Part shown: piece after piece, positions 3,265 to 6,420 of the stretch | Numbering within the stretch: position 1 is the first letter of the stretch | Layout: every line of letters begins with the position of its first letter | Assembly (NCBI GenBank): GCA_030584185.1 | Contig: CP129495.1 | Span: 639,608-703,607, forward strand | Direction of reading: 5' to 3' | From: Acidimicrobiia bacterium | GTDB taxonomy: Bacteria; Actinomycetota; Acidimicrobiia; Spongiisociales; UBA11373 | DNA length: 64,000 nt | The notes under the pieces: model-generated | The model's database searches: none | The model's input: only the letters and a program-made list of their open reading frames with translations | Told to the model about the DNA's origin: nothing | Program-made: the position numbers and the translations under genes

Positions 3265-3663
3265 ATGAACGCCAAGCTGTTCGCCGTCGCACTCCCCGTG
3301 TTCTTTGCCATCGACATGGTGTGGCTCGGCCTGGTCGCCAAGGGCTTCTACCGGCGCCAGCTCGGTGCCCTGATGCGCACCGACGTGAACTGGGCGGCCG
3401 CCATCGTCTTCTACCTGCTGTTCATCCTGGGCCTTGTCGTGTTCGTGGTGGCTCCAGCCGTGGACGCCGGCTCGTGGACTGAGGCGGTGTGGCGCGGGGC
3501 CCTGTTCGGGCTGGTGACGTACGCCACATACGATCTGACCAACCTCGCCACGCTTCGCGACTGGCCGCTTCCGATGAGCCTGGTCGACCTGGCCTGGGGA
3601 GCCGTCCTGGCGTCCTCGGTGGCGGTGGCAACCTACGGGATCGGAACCCGGCTAGGGGTGTGA
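3265..3663 (+). CDS. DUF2177-family small membrane protein
   Basis: GGAGG RBS before ATG 3265; 'DMVWLG', 'YATYDLTN.ATL.DWP' and 'VDLAWG' motifs; 132 aa. Confidence 0.85.
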   Translation: MNAKLFAVALPVFFAIDMVWLGLVAKGFYRRQLGALMRTDVNWAAAIVFYLLFILGLVVFVVAPAVDAGSWTEAVWRGALFGLVTYATYDLTNLATLRDWPLPMSLVDLAWGAVLASSVAVATYGIGTRLGV

Positions 3664-3758: not shown

Positions 3759-3810
3759 GCATCGCCCCCGAAAAGGGGGCGATGCAAGTGGAGGTGCGGG
3801 GAGTCGAACC
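3759..3810 (-). repeat. Displaced 3' fragment of tmRNA plus hairpin (att-like direct repeat, copy 1)
   Basis: 52 bp identical to 5478..5529 (gcatcgcccccgaaaagggggcgatgcaagtggaggtgcggggagtcgaacc); a further 10 bp match with 2 mismatches (3749-3758 vs 5468-5477). Confidence 0.95.
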
Positions 3811-3923
3811 TCGAGAGATGAGGCAGACCCGTGTTTCCTATTGAGGTCGTGGATCTGCTCCCCCGTGAGAGCGCCTCCCACTCGAGGAGCCAAGTCGCTT
3901 CAACAGCAACACAGGTCAGAGGA

Positions 3924-3960
3924 TTGACAAAATACTGCCGATACCGGTATAGTTTTGTCA
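3924..3960 (+). promoter_or_regulatory. Sigma70-type promoter (probably leaderless) with overlapping inverted repeat
   Basis: TTGACA 3924-3929, 18-bp spacer, TATAGT 3948-3953, ATG 6 nt later; TGACAAAA (3925-3932) / TTTTGTCA (3953-3960) inverted repeat; palindrome ATACCGGTAT 3941-3950. Confidence 0.8.
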
Positions 3961-4631
3961 TGTCACTGGTAGACGTTGCGGAGGCTGCTCAGCAACTGGG
4001 TGTGAGCCCGAGGCGAGTACGGCAGATGCTGGCCGACGAACTCGTGCCCGCGGTTCGTATCGGTCGAGCGTGGGCTGTGGAACAACGCCACGTCGACCAC
4101 CTCAAGAACCACCGAGCCTCCGCCGGGAGACCGTGGAGTCCTTCATCAGCATGGGCAGCCCTCGCCGCGGCCGATGGTCGTGAGCATTCGCTCTCTTCTG
4201 TTGATCGGTCGCGGGCTCGCCGCCGTCTCGGTCGGGCAGGGCTCGTTGGAATCGCCGAGAGGCTGGCAGCCCGAGCCGACTCCAGGCGATTCTATGGACA
4301 CCCCTCCGTACTGGAGCGGCTCGGAAACGCACCCGATGTCGTCCGCTCGGGGGTGAGTGCAGCAAAGGAGCATGGTGCCGATCTTCTCGCATGGGGTTTC
4401 CTGGAGGCGTACGTCCCGAGGTCCGCCGCGGACGGCATCATCAGCAAGTACGCACTCGACGAGGATGCCGAGCGGGCGAATATCGTCCTCAGGATCGTCG
4501 AAGACTCGGCGTGGCCGTTTGCTCCAGGTGAACGTTTCGCCCCCAGAGCGGTCGTCGCCATCGACCTACTCGAGTCGGGGGATGAGCGATCACGTCGATC
4601 CGGTCTGGCACTGGCACGGCAGTCGCCATGA
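3960..4631 (+). CDS. Excisionase-type HTH protein, putative AbiEi-like antitoxin/autorepressor
   Basis: N-terminus MSLVDVAEAAQQLGVSPRRVRQML...RIGRAWAV is an HTH_17-like pattern; C-terminus 'EAYVP...ANIVLR...AVVAIDLLES'; overlaps the next gene (ATGA). Confidence 0.7.
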   Translation: MSLVDVAEAAQQLGVSPRRVRQMLADELVPAVRIGRAWAVEQRHVDHLKNHRASAGRPWSPSSAWAALAAADGREHSLSSVDRSRARRRLGRAGLVGIAERLAARADSRRFYGHPSVLERLGNAPDVVRSGVSAAKEHGADLLAWGFLEAYVPRSAADGIISKYALDEDAERANIVLRIVEDSAWPFAPGERFAPRAVVAIDLLESGDERSRRSGLALARQSP

Positions 4632-5374
4632 TGGAGAGCCCCACTATCCAACGGGGACCCGTCCGGTTGCCGAGCCTCCCTGGGCAGGCTGATGAGTTGT
4701 GGGAAACGCTCATCGAGCTCTGGAAACGTCGCCCAGGCGGCTGGACTCTCATCGGCGGACAGATGGTGCTGTTGCACGCCCTGGAGAACCTTGCGACACC
4801 CCCGCGGATTTCGACCGATCTCGATGTCCTGGTGAATGCACGGCTGGTGACTGGCGCAACGGCTGAGTTCGCAGCCGAACTCTCAGCTTGGGGATTCGAC
4901 ATGGACGGTGCATCCCCAACCGGTGTTGCTCACCGCTACGTTCGCCACGGAGTGGCGATCGACGTCTTGGCGCCTGAAGGAGTTGGTGGCCGAGCCAACC
5001 TGACGACGACGCCGCCGAATCGAACCGTATCGGTTCCTGGCGGAACACAGGCTCTCGCTAGGACCGAGCTGTTGCCGGTCCTGACGGCAGCTAGCGAAGG
5101 ACTCGTGCCGAGACCTTCGCTGTTGGGGGCTCTCGTGGTGAAGGCGGCTGCCGTTGATGTTGACGATGCTCCCCAGGCGCAACTGCAAGACCTTGCCTTC
5201 CTTCTGACTCTCGTCGACGATCCCGTTGAGCTTGCGAGCCAGCTAACCCGCAAGGATCGGACTCGGATTCGATCCCGATCGGAGCTCTCCGACGGTTCAG
5301 ACGCGGTCTGGCGAACCCTGAGCCAAGAGCAGGCCGATCGAGCGAGAGCGGCACTCAGAATCCTCTCGGCCTGA
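4628..5374 (+). CDS. Nucleotidyltransferase-fold protein, putative AbiEii / type IV TA toxin
   Basis: 'LIGGQMV...STDLDVLV' (GG...DxD) NTase signature, 'IDVLAP', 'LVVKAAA', 'LQDLAFL'; 248 aa. Confidence 0.7.
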   Translation: MMESPTIQRGPVRLPSLPGQADELWETLIELWKRRPGGWTLIGGQMVLLHALENLATPPRISTDLDVLVNARLVTGATAEFAAELSAWGFDMDGASPTGVAHRYVRHGVAIDVLAPEGVGGRANLTTTPPNRTVSVPGGTQALARTELLPVLTAASEGLVPRPSLLGALVVKAAAVDVDDAPQAQLQDLAFLLTLVDDPVELASQLTRKDRTRIRSRSELSDGSDAVWRTLSQEQADRARAALRILSA

Positions 5375-5477
5375 TCACCTGCGTGATGGCCACCCCCAAC
5401 CACCCACCAACAGCACCCCCACCCACCCCGACCAACATCAGCCGGGCAACAAACAGAGCCTCCCCGCCCGAAACGGG

Positions 5478-5504
5478 GCATCGCCCCCGAAAAGGGGGCG
5501 ATGC
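5478..5504 (-). terminator. GC-rich hairpin directly after tmRNA (identical copy at 3759..3785)
   Basis: 11-bp perfect stem gcatcgccccc/gggggcgatgc with 5-nt loop; no clear U-tract. Confidence 0.6.
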
Positions 5505-5507
5505 AAG

Positions 5508-5857
5508 TGGAGGTGCGGGGAGTCGAACCCCGGTCCTCCGCCGTTTCGATGCCGGCATCTCCGAGCGCATCCGATGGAGTGGATTCGGGAGACGAGGCCC
5601 CATCGGAAGGTGGTCCCGTTCCCTATCCGGTGTGTCTCAGCCCGCCGCTACCGGAGTCCCGGCGGGAGCCTCCCCCATTGCGGCGCCCGGGTCCGGCGAG
5701 GGGGGAGCCCACCGGTCGGACGGGCTGCGCTAGTTAGGCAGCCAGTGCGAAGTTGTCTTCGGCACTTGTGTTTGATCCCGGTTCTTTAACGAGGACTCCG
5801 GGGACCTCGGCTCGCTTCCGGCACCTCCACCGTCGGAGTCGAAACCAGTTCACCCCC
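5508..5857 (-). ncRNA. ssrA: tmRNA, tag peptide (A)AEDNFALAA*
   Basis: 5' GGGGGTGAACTGGTTTCGAC; 3' GGTTCGACTCCCCGCACCTCCA; acceptor stem with G3.U wobble; tag ORF GCC GAA GAC AAC TTC GCA CTG GCT GCC TAA at 5763..5734; next to smpB; CCA not encoded. Confidence 0.97.
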
Positions 5858-5918: not shown

Positions 5919-6395
5919 TCAGTCGAGGCTCTTGTGACGGATCGCCCGCTGCATCTCGCGATCCGCCTGGCGGCGCTTGATCGTCTCGCGCTTGTCGAAA
6001 CGGACCTTGCCTTTGGCGAGACCCAACTCCACTTTGGCCAGACCCTTCTTGAAGTAGATCCGCAGCGGCACGACGGTGAGGCCCTTCTCGGCGACCTTGG
6101 CCGCCATCCGGTCGATCTCTGCTCGATGCAGCAACAGCTTGCGGGTCCGCTCCGGGTCGTGCCCCCCATCTCGGGCGAAGCCGTAGGGAGAGATCCGCAC
6201 CCCGAACAGCCAGAACTCGCCACCGTCGACGGCGGCGTAGGCGTCCTTGAGATCGACGAGCCCGGCGCGCATCGACTTGACCTCCGAGCCGGTGAGCGAC
6301 AGCCCCGCCTCCACCGTCTCCAGGATCTCGTAGTCGAAGCGGGCCCGCCGGTTGGTCGACACCACCTTGATTCCCGGCTCTGGGGTCTTGGCCAT
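5919..6395 (-). CDS. smpB: SsrA-binding protein SmpB
   Basis: 'NRRARFDYEILETVEAGLSLTGSEVKSMR', 'RTRKLLLHRAEI', 'KGKVRFDKRETIK'; ATG at 6395. Confidence 0.97.
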   Translation of the reverse strand: MAKTPEPGIKVVSTNRRARFDYEILETVEAGLSLTGSEVKSMRAGLVDLKDAYAAVDGGEFWLFGVRISPYGFARDGGHDPERTRKLLLHRAEIDRMAAKVAEKGLTVVPLRIYFKKGLAKVELGLAKGKVRFDKRETIKRRQADREMQRAIRHKSLD

Positions 6396-6420
6396 CGGCA
6401 GCCACCGCACCGCCGGGACC

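What the first reader, a model, noticed from the sequence alone, without database searches (positions are those of the whole stretch)
3759..5529. Integrase-less 1.7-kb island at tmRNA that carries only a toxin-antitoxin-like pair
Seen: a 52-bp exact duplication of the ssrA 3' end flanks just two coupled genes, with no recombinase or transposase. Established: ssrA 3' ends are common integrase targets, and AbiE/type IV NTase modules (AbiEii, MenT) act in phage defence and element stabilisation. Inference: either the remnant of a larger island kept by addiction, or a minimal defence cassette mobilised in trans by another element's integrase.
Basis: partly seen in the sequence, partly recalled or inferred. 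Interest (0 to 1): 0.66.

Follow-up and report, generated by a model that had tools for sequence, protein, structure and literature searches.

The report
Integrase-less toxin-antitoxin islet at tmRNA gene
A 1.7-kb piece of foreign DNA sits in the end of the tmRNA gene of an uncultured wastewater Acidimicrobiia bacterium, carries only a previously unnamed MenT/AbiE-like toxin-antitoxin pair and no recombinase, and is a clear example of a known kind of worn-down or hitch-hiking genomic islet.

Summary
An exact 52-bp direct repeat (3759-3810 and 5478-5529) brackets two overlapping genes beside ssrA. The repeat is the last 23 nt of ssrA plus its 29-nt terminator hairpin. No recombinase lies between the copies.

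The cargo is foreign: GC3 is 0.65 against 0.88 in neighbouring genes. p2 matches no HMM library, but its predicted fold is that of the MenT1/MenT3 nucleotidyltransferase toxins and it keeps the GG...S-x-D-x-D motif. p1 has an excisionase/MerR-type HTH and a weakly AbiEi-like C-terminal domain. A conserved palindromic promoter precedes p1.

The pair is invariant in 80 of 80 related loci and sporadic among relatives. It lies next to tRNA 3' ends far more often than chance. In some genomes it sits beside diverse tyrosine integrases; in at least 11 others only att-like repeats flank it.

The host genome's three AbiEii hits also lie in integrase-less, tRNA-repeat-bounded islands.

Best reading: a CIME-like islet, made by site-specific integration, that has lost its integrase and is held by addiction. 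I cannot exclude that it never had one. Eight metagenomes show it fixed and single-copy; these data could not show excision. This is a known kind of element carrying a new toxin-antitoxin family.

The parts
5505..5857 (-). ssrA (tmRNA gene), intact. Its last 23 nt lie inside the gene-proximal repeat copy.
   Evidence: Rfam RF00023, 145.7 bits, model positions 1-374. ARAGORN 5507-5857, tag AEDNFALAA.
5478..5529 (.). Gene-proximal att copy (called attR here): the ssrA 3' end (5507-5529) plus the terminator hairpin (5478-5504).
   Evidence: Exact 52-bp repeat. Two copies in the genome. Hairpin fold.
3759..3810 (.). Distal att copy (called attL here): an orphan 23-nt ssrA 3' fragment (3788-3810) plus the same hairpin (3759-3785).
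   Evidence: The similarity continues to 3749 and 3813 with 3 mismatches.
3811..3923 (+). Non-coding end of the islet on the p1 side (P arm).
   Evidence: Read directly from the sequence. No ORF conserved in relatives. No match in relatives' ssrA loci.
3924..3959 (+). Promoter TTGACA-18-TATAGT overlapped by a palindrome: GACAAAA at 3926, ATACCGGTAT at 3941, TTTTGTC at 3953. It ends at the ATG of p1, so the mRNA is probably leaderless. Presumed operator of p1.
   Evidence: 11/12 promoter match, 1 found against 0.1 expected. The heptamers occur only 3 and 2 times in the 2.2-Mb genome. The same architecture is conserved upstream of p1 in nearly all Acidimicrobiia loci.
3960..4631 (+). p1, 223 aa: an N-terminal excisionase/MerR-type winged HTH plus an alpha/beta C-terminal domain. 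Presumed antitoxin and autorepressor.
   Evidence: HTH_17, E 9e-7, above the cut-off. AF2 pLDDT 91. The N-terminal domain superposes on Pukovnik Xis, RdfS and BldC; the whole protein matches AbiEi 6y8q weakly. 16 of 36 homologues give sub-threshold AbiEi_2 hits.
4628..5374 (+). p2, 248 aa: MenT/AbiEii-like nucleotidyltransferase, presumed toxin.
   Evidence: No HMM hit. AF2 pLDDT 83, pTM 0.85. Foldseek: MenT1 E 2.2e-6, TglT/MenT3 E 1.9e-3. Invariant G43 G44, S62 T63 D64 L65 D66, D112, K172, D180, D188. Motif aligned to the genome's own AbiEii.
5375..5477 (+). Non-coding end of the islet next to ssrA (P' arm), rich in C/CCCAC runs.
   Evidence: 81% identical over 80 nt to the stretch right after ssrA in a genome of another genus (G044, loci L105/L128). 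There it is followed by a second ssrA fragment with no cargo.
3265..3663 (+). Chromosomal flank: DUF2177 membrane-protein gene, convergent with ssrA.
   Evidence: PF09945, E 6e-48. In G023 (L113) a 66%-identical homologue lies 137 bp after ssrA with nothing in between.
5919..6401 (-). Chromosomal flank: smpB, directly upstream of ssrA.
   Evidence: PF01668, E 8e-57.

Best explanation
**What it is.** The segment 3811-5477 is a horizontally acquired islet. It entered the 3' end of ssrA by site-specific recombination between an element-borne copy of the ssrA end plus terminator and the chromosomal site. That event left the 52-bp att repeat on both sides and rebuilt an intact tmRNA gene.

**Cargo.** Its only cargo is one operon, probably transcribed as a leaderless mRNA from a strong promoter that carries a palindromic operator.
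- p1 is inferred to bind that operator through its Xis/MerR-type HTH and to repress the operon. It is also inferred to neutralise p2 through its C-terminal domain.
- p2 is inferred to be a MenT/AbiEii-type nucleotidyltransferase toxin. By analogy with MenT1 and MenT3, it would add nucleotides to tRNA acceptor ends and stop translation. It may be held in check by antitoxin-induced phosphorylation of S62 or T63.

**How it reached its present form.** The islet has no recombinase. It is most likely the residue of a small integrase-bearing element of the kind that carries the same module elsewhere, reduced by deletion in a streamlined 2.2-Mb genome. The addictive pair penalises its loss, which would keep it in place. 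In the terms of the field it is a cis-mobilizable element (CIME): attL and attR are retained, and it could move only if a matching integrase were supplied in trans.

**Shown:** the repeat, the foreign composition, the fold and motifs, the conserved operon and operator, the association with tRNA ends and integrases, and the lack of a recombinase.

**Inferred:** toxicity, antitoxicity, the tRNA target, addiction and the decay history.
For: 1. **Anatomy of an att-bounded insertion.** The 52-bp repeat is exact and starts at the T-loop GGTTCGA. ssrA is intact.
2. **Foreign origin.** GC is 63.1% against 68.6% for the genome. GC3 is 0.65 against 0.88-0.89 in secA, ftsX and DUF2177.
3. **Accessory distribution.** p2 occurs in 4 of 41 genomes searched, this one included. 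None of the other 27 ssrA loci examined in the family has it there. G023 shows ssrA, 137 bp, then DUF2177; 125 bp is predicted here after attL x attR recombination.
4. **Toxin-antitoxin nature.** The p2 fold matches MenT1 and MenT3. The GG...S-x-D-x-D motif aligns with AbiEii, and K and D residues are invariant. These correspond to the residues described for MenT1 (T39, D41, K137, D152) and MenT3 (S78) in PMC11375011. The p1 gene is directly upstream in 80 of 80 loci. The promoter palindrome is conserved. Distant homologous pairs sit on actinobacterial plasmids.
5. **Habitual cargo of integrative elements.** Eleven of 80 loci have a tRNA gene within about 250 bp with its 3' end facing the pair, where roughly 1 is expected by chance (my estimate). 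Five more have tRNA-Arg, integrase, p1, p2 in that order. Tyrosine integrases are adjacent in about 14 loci and are mutually diverse, at 23-39% identity between clades.
6. **Integrase-less versions recur.** At least 11 loci carry 19-258-bp direct repeats 1.5-2.8 kb apart around just the pair. They are scattered over the p1-p2 tree.
7. **The same genome shows a series of decay stages.**
   - A 2.2-kb islet with only AbiEi/AbiEii lies behind a 32-kb tRNA-Met island.
   - A 5.6-kb tRNA-Ile island holds two AbiE pairs, one truncated to 94 aa.
   - Cargo-less att arrays follow tRNA-Pro, tRNA-Tyr and tRNA-Lys.
   - All 3 PF08843 hits of the genome lie in these integrase-less islands.
8. **Precedent.** The CIME definition and accretion are described in PMC5704250. 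ssrA islands with tandem direct repeats and suspected CIMEs are described in PMC3146451. Degenerate elements and partial tRNAs within islands are described in bioRxiv 10.1101/2020.12.28.424599.
Against: - **The islet does not look old.** The repeat copies are 52/52 identical and the codon composition has not drifted towards the host's. Loss of an integrase would therefore have had to be quick and clean, leaving no pseudogene fragment in the 149-bp and 103-bp spacers.
- **No direct ancestor was found.** None of the 80 related loci examined lies at ssrA, so no integrase-bearing ssrA-targeting version of this element is known.
- **No current mobility was seen.** In 8 metagenomes the islet has the same depth as its flanks and no joints appear. 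However, contigs built from 31-mers cannot resolve junctions across a 52-bp repeat.
- **p2 is undetectable by the DUF1814/AbiEii HMM, and p1 is only marginally AbiEi-like.** The toxin-antitoxin assignment rests on a predicted fold, motifs and context. Toxicity is untested.
Confidence: 0.6

Rival explanations
1. The islet never had its own integrase. On this reading the two-gene unit with its att copy is a minimal cassette that circulates as a 1,719-bp circle, or as part of a tandem composite. A recombinase encoded elsewhere inserted it in trans, much as integron cassettes or CIME-ICE accretions are handled.
For: - The repeats are perfect and the composition is unameliorated, which suggests a recent event.
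- The spacers hold no integrase debris.
- Units of the same size (1.5-2.3 kb between repeats) recur at unrelated sites and in unrelated clades.
- In L063, three att-bounded cassettes without an integrase sit in a row behind tRNA-Gly. Together they hold the p1-p2 pair beside an AAA/DUF4143 gene, an HTH_3 plus DUF6036 nucleotidyltransferase pair, and a PIN-domain gene.
- The P' arm is shared with a cargo-less unit at ssrA in another genus.
- The genome encodes possible trans-acting recombinases: three full-length island-type tyrosine recombinases and four large serine recombinases. The open frames of two of the serine recombinases end in or at tRNA genes.
Against: - No circle or empty-site junction was seen, although the available contig data could not have shown one.
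- No recombinase in this genome is linked to ssrA; the nearest lies 48 kb away.
- No near-identical cassettes were found at different sites, which would be the signature of recent cassette traffic.
- The same module does occur directly beside integrases in other genomes.
Confidence: 0.25
2. The pair is not a toxin-antitoxin system. On this reading p2 is a small-molecule or nucleic-acid nucleotidyltransferase with a benign accessory role, for example a resistance-type adenylyltransferase. p1 is then simply its transcriptional regulator.
For: - The fold search also returns ANT(2'')-Ia and other minimal nucleotidyltransferases, though more weakly (4wqk, E 0.024).
- p2 matches no toxin HMM.
- Toxicity is untested.
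Against: - The best structural matches are MenT1 and MenT3.
- The S/T-x-D-x-D phospho-acceptor and catalytic motif, and the invariant K172, are those of MenT/AbiEii.
- The genes are strictly coupled, with the partner first (80 of 80 loci).
- The operon carries an autoregulatory palindrome.
- The pair occurs on plasmids and in att-bounded islets alongside other toxin-antitoxin modules.
Confidence: 0.07
3. The two proteins themselves move the element. On this reading p1 (an Xis-like DNA binder) and p2 (a metal-dependent DxD enzyme) form a new kind of integration machinery. The repeat would then be a long target-site duplication made at tRNA or tmRNA 3' ends.
For: - The pair is the only content of many repeat-bounded units, at different tRNA, tmRNA and non-tRNA sites.
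- The repeat always matches the local target.
- The p1 HTH is of the excisionase type, with 36% identity to Pukovnik Xis over the domain.
Against: - p2 has the Pol-beta nucleotidyltransferase fold of tRNA-modifying toxins, not a recombinase or transposase fold.
- In other loci the flanking repeats are 100-260 bp long and only 84-94% identical. That fits att regions of related elements, not target-site duplications.
- The similarity here decays at the repeat edges.
- Most loci of the family have no flanking repeat at all.
- Canonical integrases sit next to the module in several clades.
Confidence: 0.03

Closest known systems
MenAT / AbiE nucleotidyltransferase toxin-antitoxin systems (M. tuberculosis MenT1/MenA1 and MenT3/MenA3; S. 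agalactiae and L. lactis AbiEi/AbiEii; DUF1814, PF08843)
   Same: - Pol-beta nucleotidyltransferase fold; the best structural hits are MenT1 and TglT/MenT3.
- The GG...[ST]-x-D-x-D motif plus conserved Lys and Asp.
- Antitoxin gene first, overlapping the toxin gene.
- The antitoxin has an N-terminal DNA-binding domain, a second domain, and a palindromic operator.
- Found in mobile contexts.
   Different: - Not detected by the PF08843, NCBIfam or PADLOC models in any of 26 members.
- p2 is 248 aa, between MenT1 (crystallised chains of 184-195 residues) and MenT3/AbiEii (289-290).
- The antitoxin's HTH is the excisionase/MerR type (HTH_17), not the AbiEi_4 winged helix. Similarity to AbiEi is sub-threshold.
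- Activity, target and mode of neutralisation are untested.
Cis-mobilizable elements (CIMEs) and tandem accretion at att sites (ICESt1/CIME of Streptococcus thermophilus; review PMC5704250)
   Same: - attL and attR are retained, with no integration or transfer genes.
- It sits in the 3' end of a conserved RNA gene.
- The same genome shows tandem stacking of an integrase-bearing island and an integrase-less islet at tRNA-Met.
   Different: - Here the islet stands alone at ssrA, with no partner element.
- Mobilisation has not been shown.
- It is extremely small, with a toxin-antitoxin pair as its only content.
Dehalococcoides ssrA genomic islands (PMC3146451) and ssrA-targeting islands in general (Williams 2002 and 2003, cited)
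   Same: - Integration at the ssrA 3' end with a direct repeat at the far boundary.
- Arrays of repeats downstream of ssrA occur in related genomes (L105, L108, L118, L124).
- The authors of PMC3146451 also suspected integrase-less units in such arrays to be CIMEs.
   Different: - The Dehalococcoides islands are 10-kb-scale, use a 20-bp repeat, and carry a serine-recombinase integration module.
- Here the repeat is 52 bp, runs 29 nt past the gene through its terminator, and no recombinase is present.
Tycheposon islands of Prochlorococcus (bioRxiv 10.1101/2020.12.28.424599)
   Same: - A streamlined genome.
- Islands next to tRNA and tmRNA genes.
- Partial tRNA copies marking successive integrations.
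- Degenerate remnants without intact integrases.
   Different: - A different phylum, and the recombinases involved here are unknown.
- The cargo here is toxin-antitoxin modules rather than nutrient-uptake genes.

Membership tests
MenT/AbiEii (DUF1814) nucleotidyltransferase toxins | Pol-beta-type nucleotidyltransferase fold resembling solved MenT/AbiEii-family toxins | tested here: met
   AF2 model with pLDDT 83 and pTM 0.85. Foldseek against PDB: MenT1 8an5_B E 2.2e-6 (TM 0.47/0.61), 8an4, and TglT/MenT3 6j7r E 1.9e-3.
MenT/AbiEii (DUF1814) nucleotidyltransferase toxins | Conserved catalytic motifs: GG, [ST]-x-D-x-D, Lys, Asp | tested here: met
   G43 G44, S62 T63 D64 L65 D66, K172 and D180/D188 are invariant in 26 sequences. 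hhalign places GG...R-I-S-T-D-L-D on GG...R-M-T-K-D-L-D of the genome's own AbiEii. Residue roles are taken from PMC11375011. The correspondence of the Lys and Asp positions rests on order and spacing only.
MenT/AbiEii (DUF1814) nucleotidyltransferase toxins | Match to the family's sequence models (PF08843, NCBIfam, PADLOC AbiE) | tested here: not met
   No hit for p2 in Pfam, NCBIfam, PADLOC or PHROGs. 0 of 26 family members hit any nucleotidyltransferase family at E <= 1. No PDB sequence match, even with a profile.
MenT/AbiEii (DUF1814) nucleotidyltransferase toxins | Toxic on expression, neutralised by the adjacent gene product, modifies tRNA 3' ends | not testable with these tools
   Needs expression and tRNA sequencing.
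AbiEi-type antitoxins | Two-domain protein with an N-terminal winged HTH and a C-terminal antitoxicity domain, encoded directly upstream of the toxin | tested here: met
   AF2 model with pLDDT 91 shows a winged HTH (residues 1-50) and an alpha/beta domain (60-220). The gene is upstream and overlapping in 80 of 80 loci.
AbiEi-type antitoxins | Sequence or structure match to AbiEi families (PF13338, PF09407, PF09952; PDB 6y8q) | tested here: inconclusive
   Window protein against AbiEi_2: E 0.17. Of 36 homologues, 16 give sub-threshold AbiEi_2 hits (best 8e-4) and 8 give AbiEi_4 hits (best 4e-4). Foldseek against 6y8q: E 0.16, probability 0.63. hhalign against the genome's own AbiEi found nothing.
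AbiEi-type antitoxins | Negative autoregulation through inverted repeats in the promoter | tested here: inconclusive
   A conserved palindrome spans the -35 to -10 region in nearly all Acidimicrobiia loci and in the window. Binding and repression were not tested.
tRNA/tmRNA-integrated genomic island (Islander-type) | Direct repeat of the t(m)RNA gene 3' end bounding the insert, with an intact gene at one end | tested here: met
tRNA/tmRNA-integrated genomic island (Islander-type) | An integrase gene inside the island | tested here: not met
   Only p1 and p2 lie between the repeats. The genome's PF00589 and PF00239 hits all lie elsewhere.
tRNA/tmRNA-integrated genomic island (Islander-type) | Foreign composition and absence from relatives (empty site) | tested here: met
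   GC3 0.65 against 0.88. p2 in 4 of 41 genomes searched, this one included. G023 has ssrA, 137 bp, then DUF2177. No same-genus genome was available, so the exact empty site was not seen.
Cis-mobilizable element (CIME) | Retains attL and attR but lacks integration and transfer genes | tested here: met
   Definition from PMC5704250.
Cis-mobilizable element (CIME) | Derived by decay from an integrase-bearing element | tested here: inconclusive
   Integrase-p1-p2 arrangements exist in other genomes. None is at ssrA, and there is no integrase debris here.
Cis-mobilizable element (CIME) | Can be excised or mobilised by a related element's integrase | not testable with these tools
   Only 31-mer contigs were available. 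The islet has the same depth as its flanks in 8 runs and shows no joints.

The most novel reading that the evidence does not exclude
Nucleotidyltransferase-type toxin-antitoxin pairs (AbiE, MenT-like, DUF6036-like) may not be accidental survivors. They could be the characteristic cargo of a widespread, recombinase-in-trans cassette system at tRNA and tmRNA 3' ends. In that system, att-bounded cassettes of 1.5-2.5 kb would be stacked, shuffled and stabilised much as in a chromosomal integron. In this particular family, the antitoxin's excisionase-type HTH would double as a recombination directionality factor, coupling excision of the cassette to release of the toxin.

Hints, none decisive:
- All four such modules of this genome lie in integrase-less att-bounded islands.
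- At least 11 other loci of the family are repeat-bounded.
- L063 holds a stack of toxin-antitoxin cassettes.
- The p1 operator lies within 150 bp of the att core.
- Earlier notes of this scan list about 35 similar AbiE cassettes in other phyla (leads only).
Probability: 0.1. Interest if true: 0.7.

Novelty: new variant of a known kind. Interest (0 to 1): 0.36.

Why it matters
**The islet itself is ordinary.** Integrase-less, att-bounded remnants (CIMEs) at tRNA and tmRNA genes are described in the literature.

**Two things are worth keeping.**

1. **An unnamed toxin-antitoxin family.** The cargo defines a sizeable family that no library names.
   - It has about 1,800 clusters at 50% identity and was found in 220 places in the species-representative genome collection.
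   - RefSeq annotates both genes of a distant homologous pair as 'hypothetical protein'.
   - By fold and motifs it is a new branch of the MenT/AbiEii tRNA-targeting nucleotidyltransferase toxins, paired with an antitoxin that uses an excisionase-type HTH.
   - Adding it to toxin-antitoxin and defence-system catalogues would name many genes in Acidimicrobiia and other Actinomycetota.

2. **A compact natural series of island decay.** This single streamlined genome holds a 32-kb island with an integrase, islets with only toxin-antitoxin cargo, a truncated toxin gene, and cargo-less att arrays. Every nucleotidyltransferase toxin-antitoxin module sits in such an islet. That makes it a good place to test whether addiction modules are what is left when islands erode, or whether such cassettes are trafficked in trans.

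Tried and rejected
- **HMM searches.** Pfam, NCBIfam, PADLOC and PHROGs on p2 found nothing.
- **PDB sequence searches.** Single-sequence and profile searches gave only noise.
- **Metagenome scans for att sites.** Two scans of JGI metagenome contigs found 0 matches. One used a degenerate 65-nt pattern covering attL, attR, attB and attP. The other used the 52-bp core.
- **Looking for excision in public runs.** Only Logan contigs built from 31-mers were available. They break at the 52-bp repeat, so empty-site and circle junctions cannot be seen. Islet-to-flank depth ratios were about 0.8-1.2 and uninformative. No Nanopore run was listed.
- **Short contigs of p2 homologues.** I tested whether the many contigs of about 1.7-1.9 kb carrying p2 homologues were circles. 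The one I could read (L096) was just a fragment, and no DNA was served for the closest homologue's 1,784-bp contig.
- **Distal tRNA repeat for the tRNA-Arg elements.** I searched for one behind the tRNA-Arg, integrase, p1, p2 elements and behind other tRNA-adjacent loci. With up to 3 mismatches in 20 nt within 9 kb, only L026 (tRNA-Leu) showed one. Those elements are larger, or their att sites are short.
- **P' arm in other genomes.** Among 401 genomes of the order, only G044 has it; the other hits are low-complexity noise.
- **Array units versus islet arms.** The arms of the ssrA islet are not related to the tRNA-Tyr, tRNA-Lys or tRNA-Pro array units.
- **Rejected: assembly artefact or local duplication.** Identical unitigs occur in 8 runs and the composition is foreign.
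- **Rejected: IS607-like serine recombinase for p1.** An N-terminal MerR-type HTH raised this possibility. There is no Resolvase match, and the C-terminal fold gives no recombinase hit.
- **Phage records.** They hold no homologue of p2.

Full report
**1. The observation**

The tmRNA gene lies on the minus strand at 5505/5507-5857 (Rfam 145.7 bits, full-length model; ARAGORN, tag AEDNFALAA). smpB is immediately upstream of it (PF01668).

The repeat finder returns an exact 52-bp direct repeat at 3759-3810 and 5478-5529, spaced 1719 bp. It extends to 65 nt with three mismatches at the edges. A whole-genome pattern search allowing three mismatches finds only these two copies in 2.21 Mb.

The repeat is not purely 'the ssrA 3' end'. 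It is the last 23 nt of the gene, from GGTTCGA in the T-loop to the discriminator region, plus 29 nt downstream. Those 29 nt form an 11-bp-stem terminator hairpin.

Between the copies lie two genes and nothing else. p1 is at 3960-4631 and p2 at 4628-5374, with an ATGA overlap. The non-coding remainder is 149 bp and 103 bp.

The same four unitigs (left flank, repeat, islet, right flank) occur without a single difference in 8 of 8 bioreactor, sludge, biofilm and wastewater metagenome runs, which come from seven studies. The structure is therefore not an assembly artefact.

**2. The islet is foreign and accessory**

- Its GC content is 63.1% against 68.6% for the genome.
- Third-position GC of p1 and p2 is 0.65, against 0.88-0.89 for secA, ftsX and the adjacent DUF2177 gene.
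- p2 homologues occur in only 4 of the 41 genomes searched (this genome plus 40 from its family and order), and never at ssrA in the others.
- In the other 27 ssrA loci examined in the family, ssrA is followed by a lineage-specific terminator hairpin.
- In one genome of another genus (G023, L113) the DUF2177 homologue (66% identity) lies convergent, 137 bp after ssrA. Recombination between the two repeat copies here would leave 125 bp.
- No same-genus genome was available, so the exact empty site was not seen.

**3. The toxin candidate, p2**

p2 (248 aa) matches nothing in Pfam, NCBIfam, PADLOC, PHROGs or PDB sequences, as a single sequence or as a profile. It nevertheless belongs to a well-conserved family:
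- 1,203 hits in the word-indexed search, with the best 120 at 60-77% identity (the window's own protein aside) and 235-257 aa;
- 1,784 clusters at 50% identity with E <= 1e-3 in the exhaustive search.

An AlphaFold model built on 26 sequences (pLDDT 83, pTM 0.85) finds these best PDB matches:
- the M. tuberculosis toxin MenT1 (8an5_B, E 2.2e-6; also 8an4);
- a fungal nucleotidyltransferase-like protein;
- TglT/MenT3 (6j7r, E 1.9e-3);
- CCA-adding enzymes further down the list.

Invariant residues include G43 G44, S62 T63 D64 L65 D66, D112, K172, D180 and D188. A profile comparison with a bona fide AbiEii of the same genome aligns '...WTLIGGQ...PPRISTDLDV' with '...WVVKGGM...SARMTKDLDL'. This places S62 at the position of the phospho-acceptor (MenT1 T39, MenT3 S78) and D64 and D66 at the metal-binding aspartates described in PMC11375011.

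**4. The antitoxin candidate, p1**

p1 (223 aa) has an above-threshold HTH_17 domain. It also has sub-threshold excisionase matches (TIGR01764, PHROG excisionases).

Its model (pLDDT 91) shows two parts:
- an N-terminal winged helix that superposes on mycobacteriophage Pukovnik Xis (36% identity), the RdfS excisionase and BldC;
- an alpha/beta C-terminal domain.

The whole-protein match to AbiEi (6y8q) is weak (probability 0.63). Sixteen of 36 homologues give sub-threshold AbiEi_2 hits and 8 give AbiEi_4 hits.

**5. Operon and operator**

The p1 gene is directly upstream of p2 in 80 of 80 related loci. Upstream of p1 is an 11/12 sigma-70-type promoter (TTGACA-18-TATAGT, 3924-3953; 0.1 expected by chance). 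It ends 6 nt before the ATG, so the transcript is probably leaderless.

A palindrome overlaps the promoter. Its outer heptamers occur only 3 and 2 times in the whole genome. The same -35/palindrome/-10/ATG architecture (consensus TTGCAtAAtacTTCCG-n4-CGGTAgtATTatGa-ATG) is conserved in nearly all Acidimicrobiia loci.

Distant homologous pairs (28-33% identity) sit on Arthrobacter, Rhodococcus and Tsukamurella plasmids. In the one region I inspected (Tsukamurella), both genes are annotated 'hypothetical protein'.

Taken together this is the anatomy of an autoregulated, antitoxin-first toxin-antitoxin operon of the MenT/AbiE kind. By sequence it is a separate family. Toxicity, neutralisation and the tRNA target are inferred, not shown.

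**6. How the module travels**

Among the 80 best loci from species-representative genomes:
- Eleven have a tRNA gene within about 250 bp of the pair (Ala, Gly, Met, Lys, Val). The tRNA 3' end faces the pair in every case. Roughly one such locus would be expected by chance (my estimate).
- Five more have tRNA-Arg, tyrosine integrase, p1, p2 in that order.
- A tyrosine recombinase is adjacent in about 14 loci. These integrases are only 23-39% identical between clades. The module is therefore promiscuous cargo rather than the partner of one integrase.
- At least 11 loci resemble the window. Direct repeats of 19-258 bp lie 1.5-2.8 kb apart and enclose the pair with little or nothing else and no integrase. 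Some repeats are tRNA 3' ends; some are not.
- On a p1+p2 tree the four kinds of context (integrase-adjacent, repeat-bounded, tRNA-adjacent, none) are interleaved.

In several loci the repeats are long and imperfect (163 bp at 84%, 202 bp at 94%, 251-258 bp at 86-88%). That fits att regions of related elements stacked in tandem, not target-site duplications.

L063 is such a stack behind tRNA-Gly. Three att-bounded cassettes sit in a row with no integrase in the array:
- an uncharacterised small ORF;
- an AAA/DUF4143 gene plus p1-p2;
- an HTH_3 plus DUF6036 nucleotidyltransferase pair, and a PIN-domain gene.

**7. The host genome shows the same pattern elsewhere**

Searching every tRNA and tmRNA 3' tail against the genome reveals several islands:
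- **tRNA-Met.** A 32-kb island contains an integrase. Behind the next att copy lies a 2.2-kb islet that holds only AbiEi (199 aa) and AbiEii (285 aa, PF08843 E 3e-28).
- **tRNA-Ile.** A 5.6-kb island without an integrase holds two AbiEi/AbiEii pairs, one with the toxin truncated to 94 aa, plus one unknown gene.
- **tRNA-Asn.** An 18.6-kb island contains an integrase.

All three PF08843 hits of the genome are in these integrase-less islands. With p2 at ssrA, every nucleotidyltransferase toxin-antitoxin module of this genome lies in an att-bounded island that lacks a recombinase.

The genome also has cargo-less tandem arrays of [tRNA 3' end + terminator + about 100 nt]: 130 bp x5 at tRNA-Pro, 166 bp x5-6 at tRNA-Tyr and 168 bp x3 at tRNA-Lys. 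The Tyr and Lys units are about 70% identical to each other.

Relatives show similar arrays after ssrA (L108 101 bp x3, plus L118, L124 and L105). The 103-bp end of the window's islet next to ssrA is 81% identical over 80 nt to the stretch after ssrA in G044, a genome of another genus. There a second ssrA fragment follows 137 nt after the ssrA 3' end with no cargo. This arm therefore belongs to a family of ssrA-targeting elements or their scars.

**8. Recombinases and mobility**

The genome has five PF00589 hits: one of Xer size, one fragment and three in or near islands. It has five PF00239 hits, four of them large serine recombinases. The open frames of two of those end inside or at tRNA genes. 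None is near ssrA; the nearest is 48 kb away.

In eight metagenomes the islet's unitig depth equals that of its flanks: 481 against 510/514, 30.7 against 31.6/30.4, and so on, with 15.1 against 18.3/18.4 the lowest ratio. No joints appear. Thus it is single-copy and fixed. However, 31-mer contigs cannot resolve junctions across a 52-bp repeat, so rare excision cannot be excluded. Scans of JGI metagenome contigs for any att variant found nothing.

**9. Interpretation**

The best-supported account is a CIME-type islet: the product of site-specific integration at ssrA, now without a recombinase, whose only cargo is an addictive toxin-antitoxin operon.

I favour derivation by loss of an integrase (about 0.55-0.6) for three reasons:
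- integrase-bearing versions of the module exist;
- this genome displays intermediate and end stages of decay;
- deletion bias in a 2.2-Mb genome, combined with post-segregational killing, predicts exactly such 'last survivors'.

Against this, the repeats are perfect, the codon usage is unameliorated and there is no integrase debris. That keeps the alternative alive at about 0.25. On that alternative the unit is a minimal cassette that was inserted in trans and never had its own integrase.

Two further readings are unlikely:
- p2 is a benign nucleotidyltransferase (about 0.07);
- the two proteins move the element themselves (about 0.03).

The fold, the motifs, the long imperfect repeats in sister loci and the neighbouring canonical integrases all argue against these two.

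**10. Comparison with what is known**

The element type is described in the literature:
- CIMEs and accretion (PMC5704250);
- ssrA islands with tandem direct repeats and suspected CIMEs in Dehalococcoides (PMC3146451);
- degenerate elements and partial tRNAs in Prochlorococcus islands (bioRxiv 10.1101/2020.12.28.424599);
- tmRNA as a multi-element hotspot in E. coli (PMC10121019).

Earlier notes of this scan list about 35 integrase-less AbiE cassettes at tRNA repeats in other phyla. I treat these as leads only. They agree with the pattern I verified independently within this genome and this protein family.

What is new is the toxin-antitoxin family itself: a MenT-like toxin invisible to current HMMs, paired with an antitoxin bearing an Xis-type HTH. 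Also new is the clear within-genome regularity that nucleotidyltransferase toxin-antitoxin modules are what integrase-less t(m)RNA islets contain.

**11. Verdict**

This is a known kind of element carrying a new variant of a known toxin-antitoxin type. Interest is modest (0.36).

Noticed in passing
G000:C1:1848697-1850966 (same genome, outside the window): A second integrase-less mini-islet of 2.2 kb, bounded by 43-48-bp copies of the tRNA-Met 3' part. It holds only AbiEi (199 aa) and AbiEii (285 aa, PF08843 E 3e-28). It is stacked behind a 32-kb island (1816456-1848744) that contains a tyrosine integrase.
   Followed up: partly
G000:C1:1430618-1436308 (same genome, outside the window): A 5.6-kb island bounded by 30-bp tRNA-Ile 3' repeats, with no integrase. 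It holds two AbiEi/AbiEii pairs, one with its toxin truncated to 94 aa, plus a 389-aa protein with no Pfam match.
   Followed up: partly
G000:C1:210574-211169; 1681867-1682800; 1560903-1561400 (same genome): Cargo-less tandem arrays of [tRNA 3' end + terminator hairpin + about 100 nt]. They follow tRNA-Pro (130 bp x5), tRNA-Tyr (166 bp x5-6) and tRNA-Lys (168 bp x3). The Tyr and Lys units are about 70% identical to each other and both end in ATAGAAGAC before GGTTCGA. Their origin is unexplained; they could be att scars, amplified mini-elements or slippage products.
   Followed up: partly
L108:1825-2100; L118:1820-2150; L124:1845-2200; L105:1820-2072: Related genomes carry two or three copies of the ssrA 3' end, 100-300 bp apart, directly after ssrA with no genes between (a stretch of L124 reads N). 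Many relatives' contigs end 30-300 bp after ssrA (L098, L100, L105, L114, L116, L120, L122), which suggests strain-variable DNA there.
   Followed up: partly
L063:5658-13751: Behind tRNA-Gly lie three cassettes separated by 250-bp att-like repeats, with no integrase in the array. One holds a small unknown ORF. One holds an AAA_14/DUF4143 ATPase plus the p1-p2 pair. One holds an HTH_3 plus DUF6036 nucleotidyltransferase pair and a PIN-domain gene.
   Followed up: partly
G000:C1:279005-280618 and 594762-596972 (same genome): The open frames of two large serine recombinases run into tRNA genes on the opposite strand. One covers tRNA-Leu (280484-280569). The other ends 10 nt inside tRNA-Ala (596963-597036) and spans a copy of a tRNA-Met 3' tail at 596815. 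These may be serine-recombinase elements that target tRNA ends.
   Followed up: no
L046:10780-10880 (also L021, L049, L050, L055): In the tRNA-Arg, integrase, p1, p2 elements of Ilumatobacteraceae, p2 is followed by iteron-like direct repeats (GGTGTCC-CTGATGTCC-CCTGTGTCC-GTTGATGTC). The pair may therefore sit at the edge of a larger, possibly replicative integrative element. No distal att repeat was found within 9 kb.
   Followed up: no
L139:2301-3693 (Tsukamurella tyrosinosolvens plasmid NZ_LR134450.1): A distant homologous pair (p2 32% identical) with the same overlapping two-gene layout sits on a 302-kb plasmid. RefSeq annotates both genes as 'hypothetical protein', so the family is unnamed even there.
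   Followed up: no
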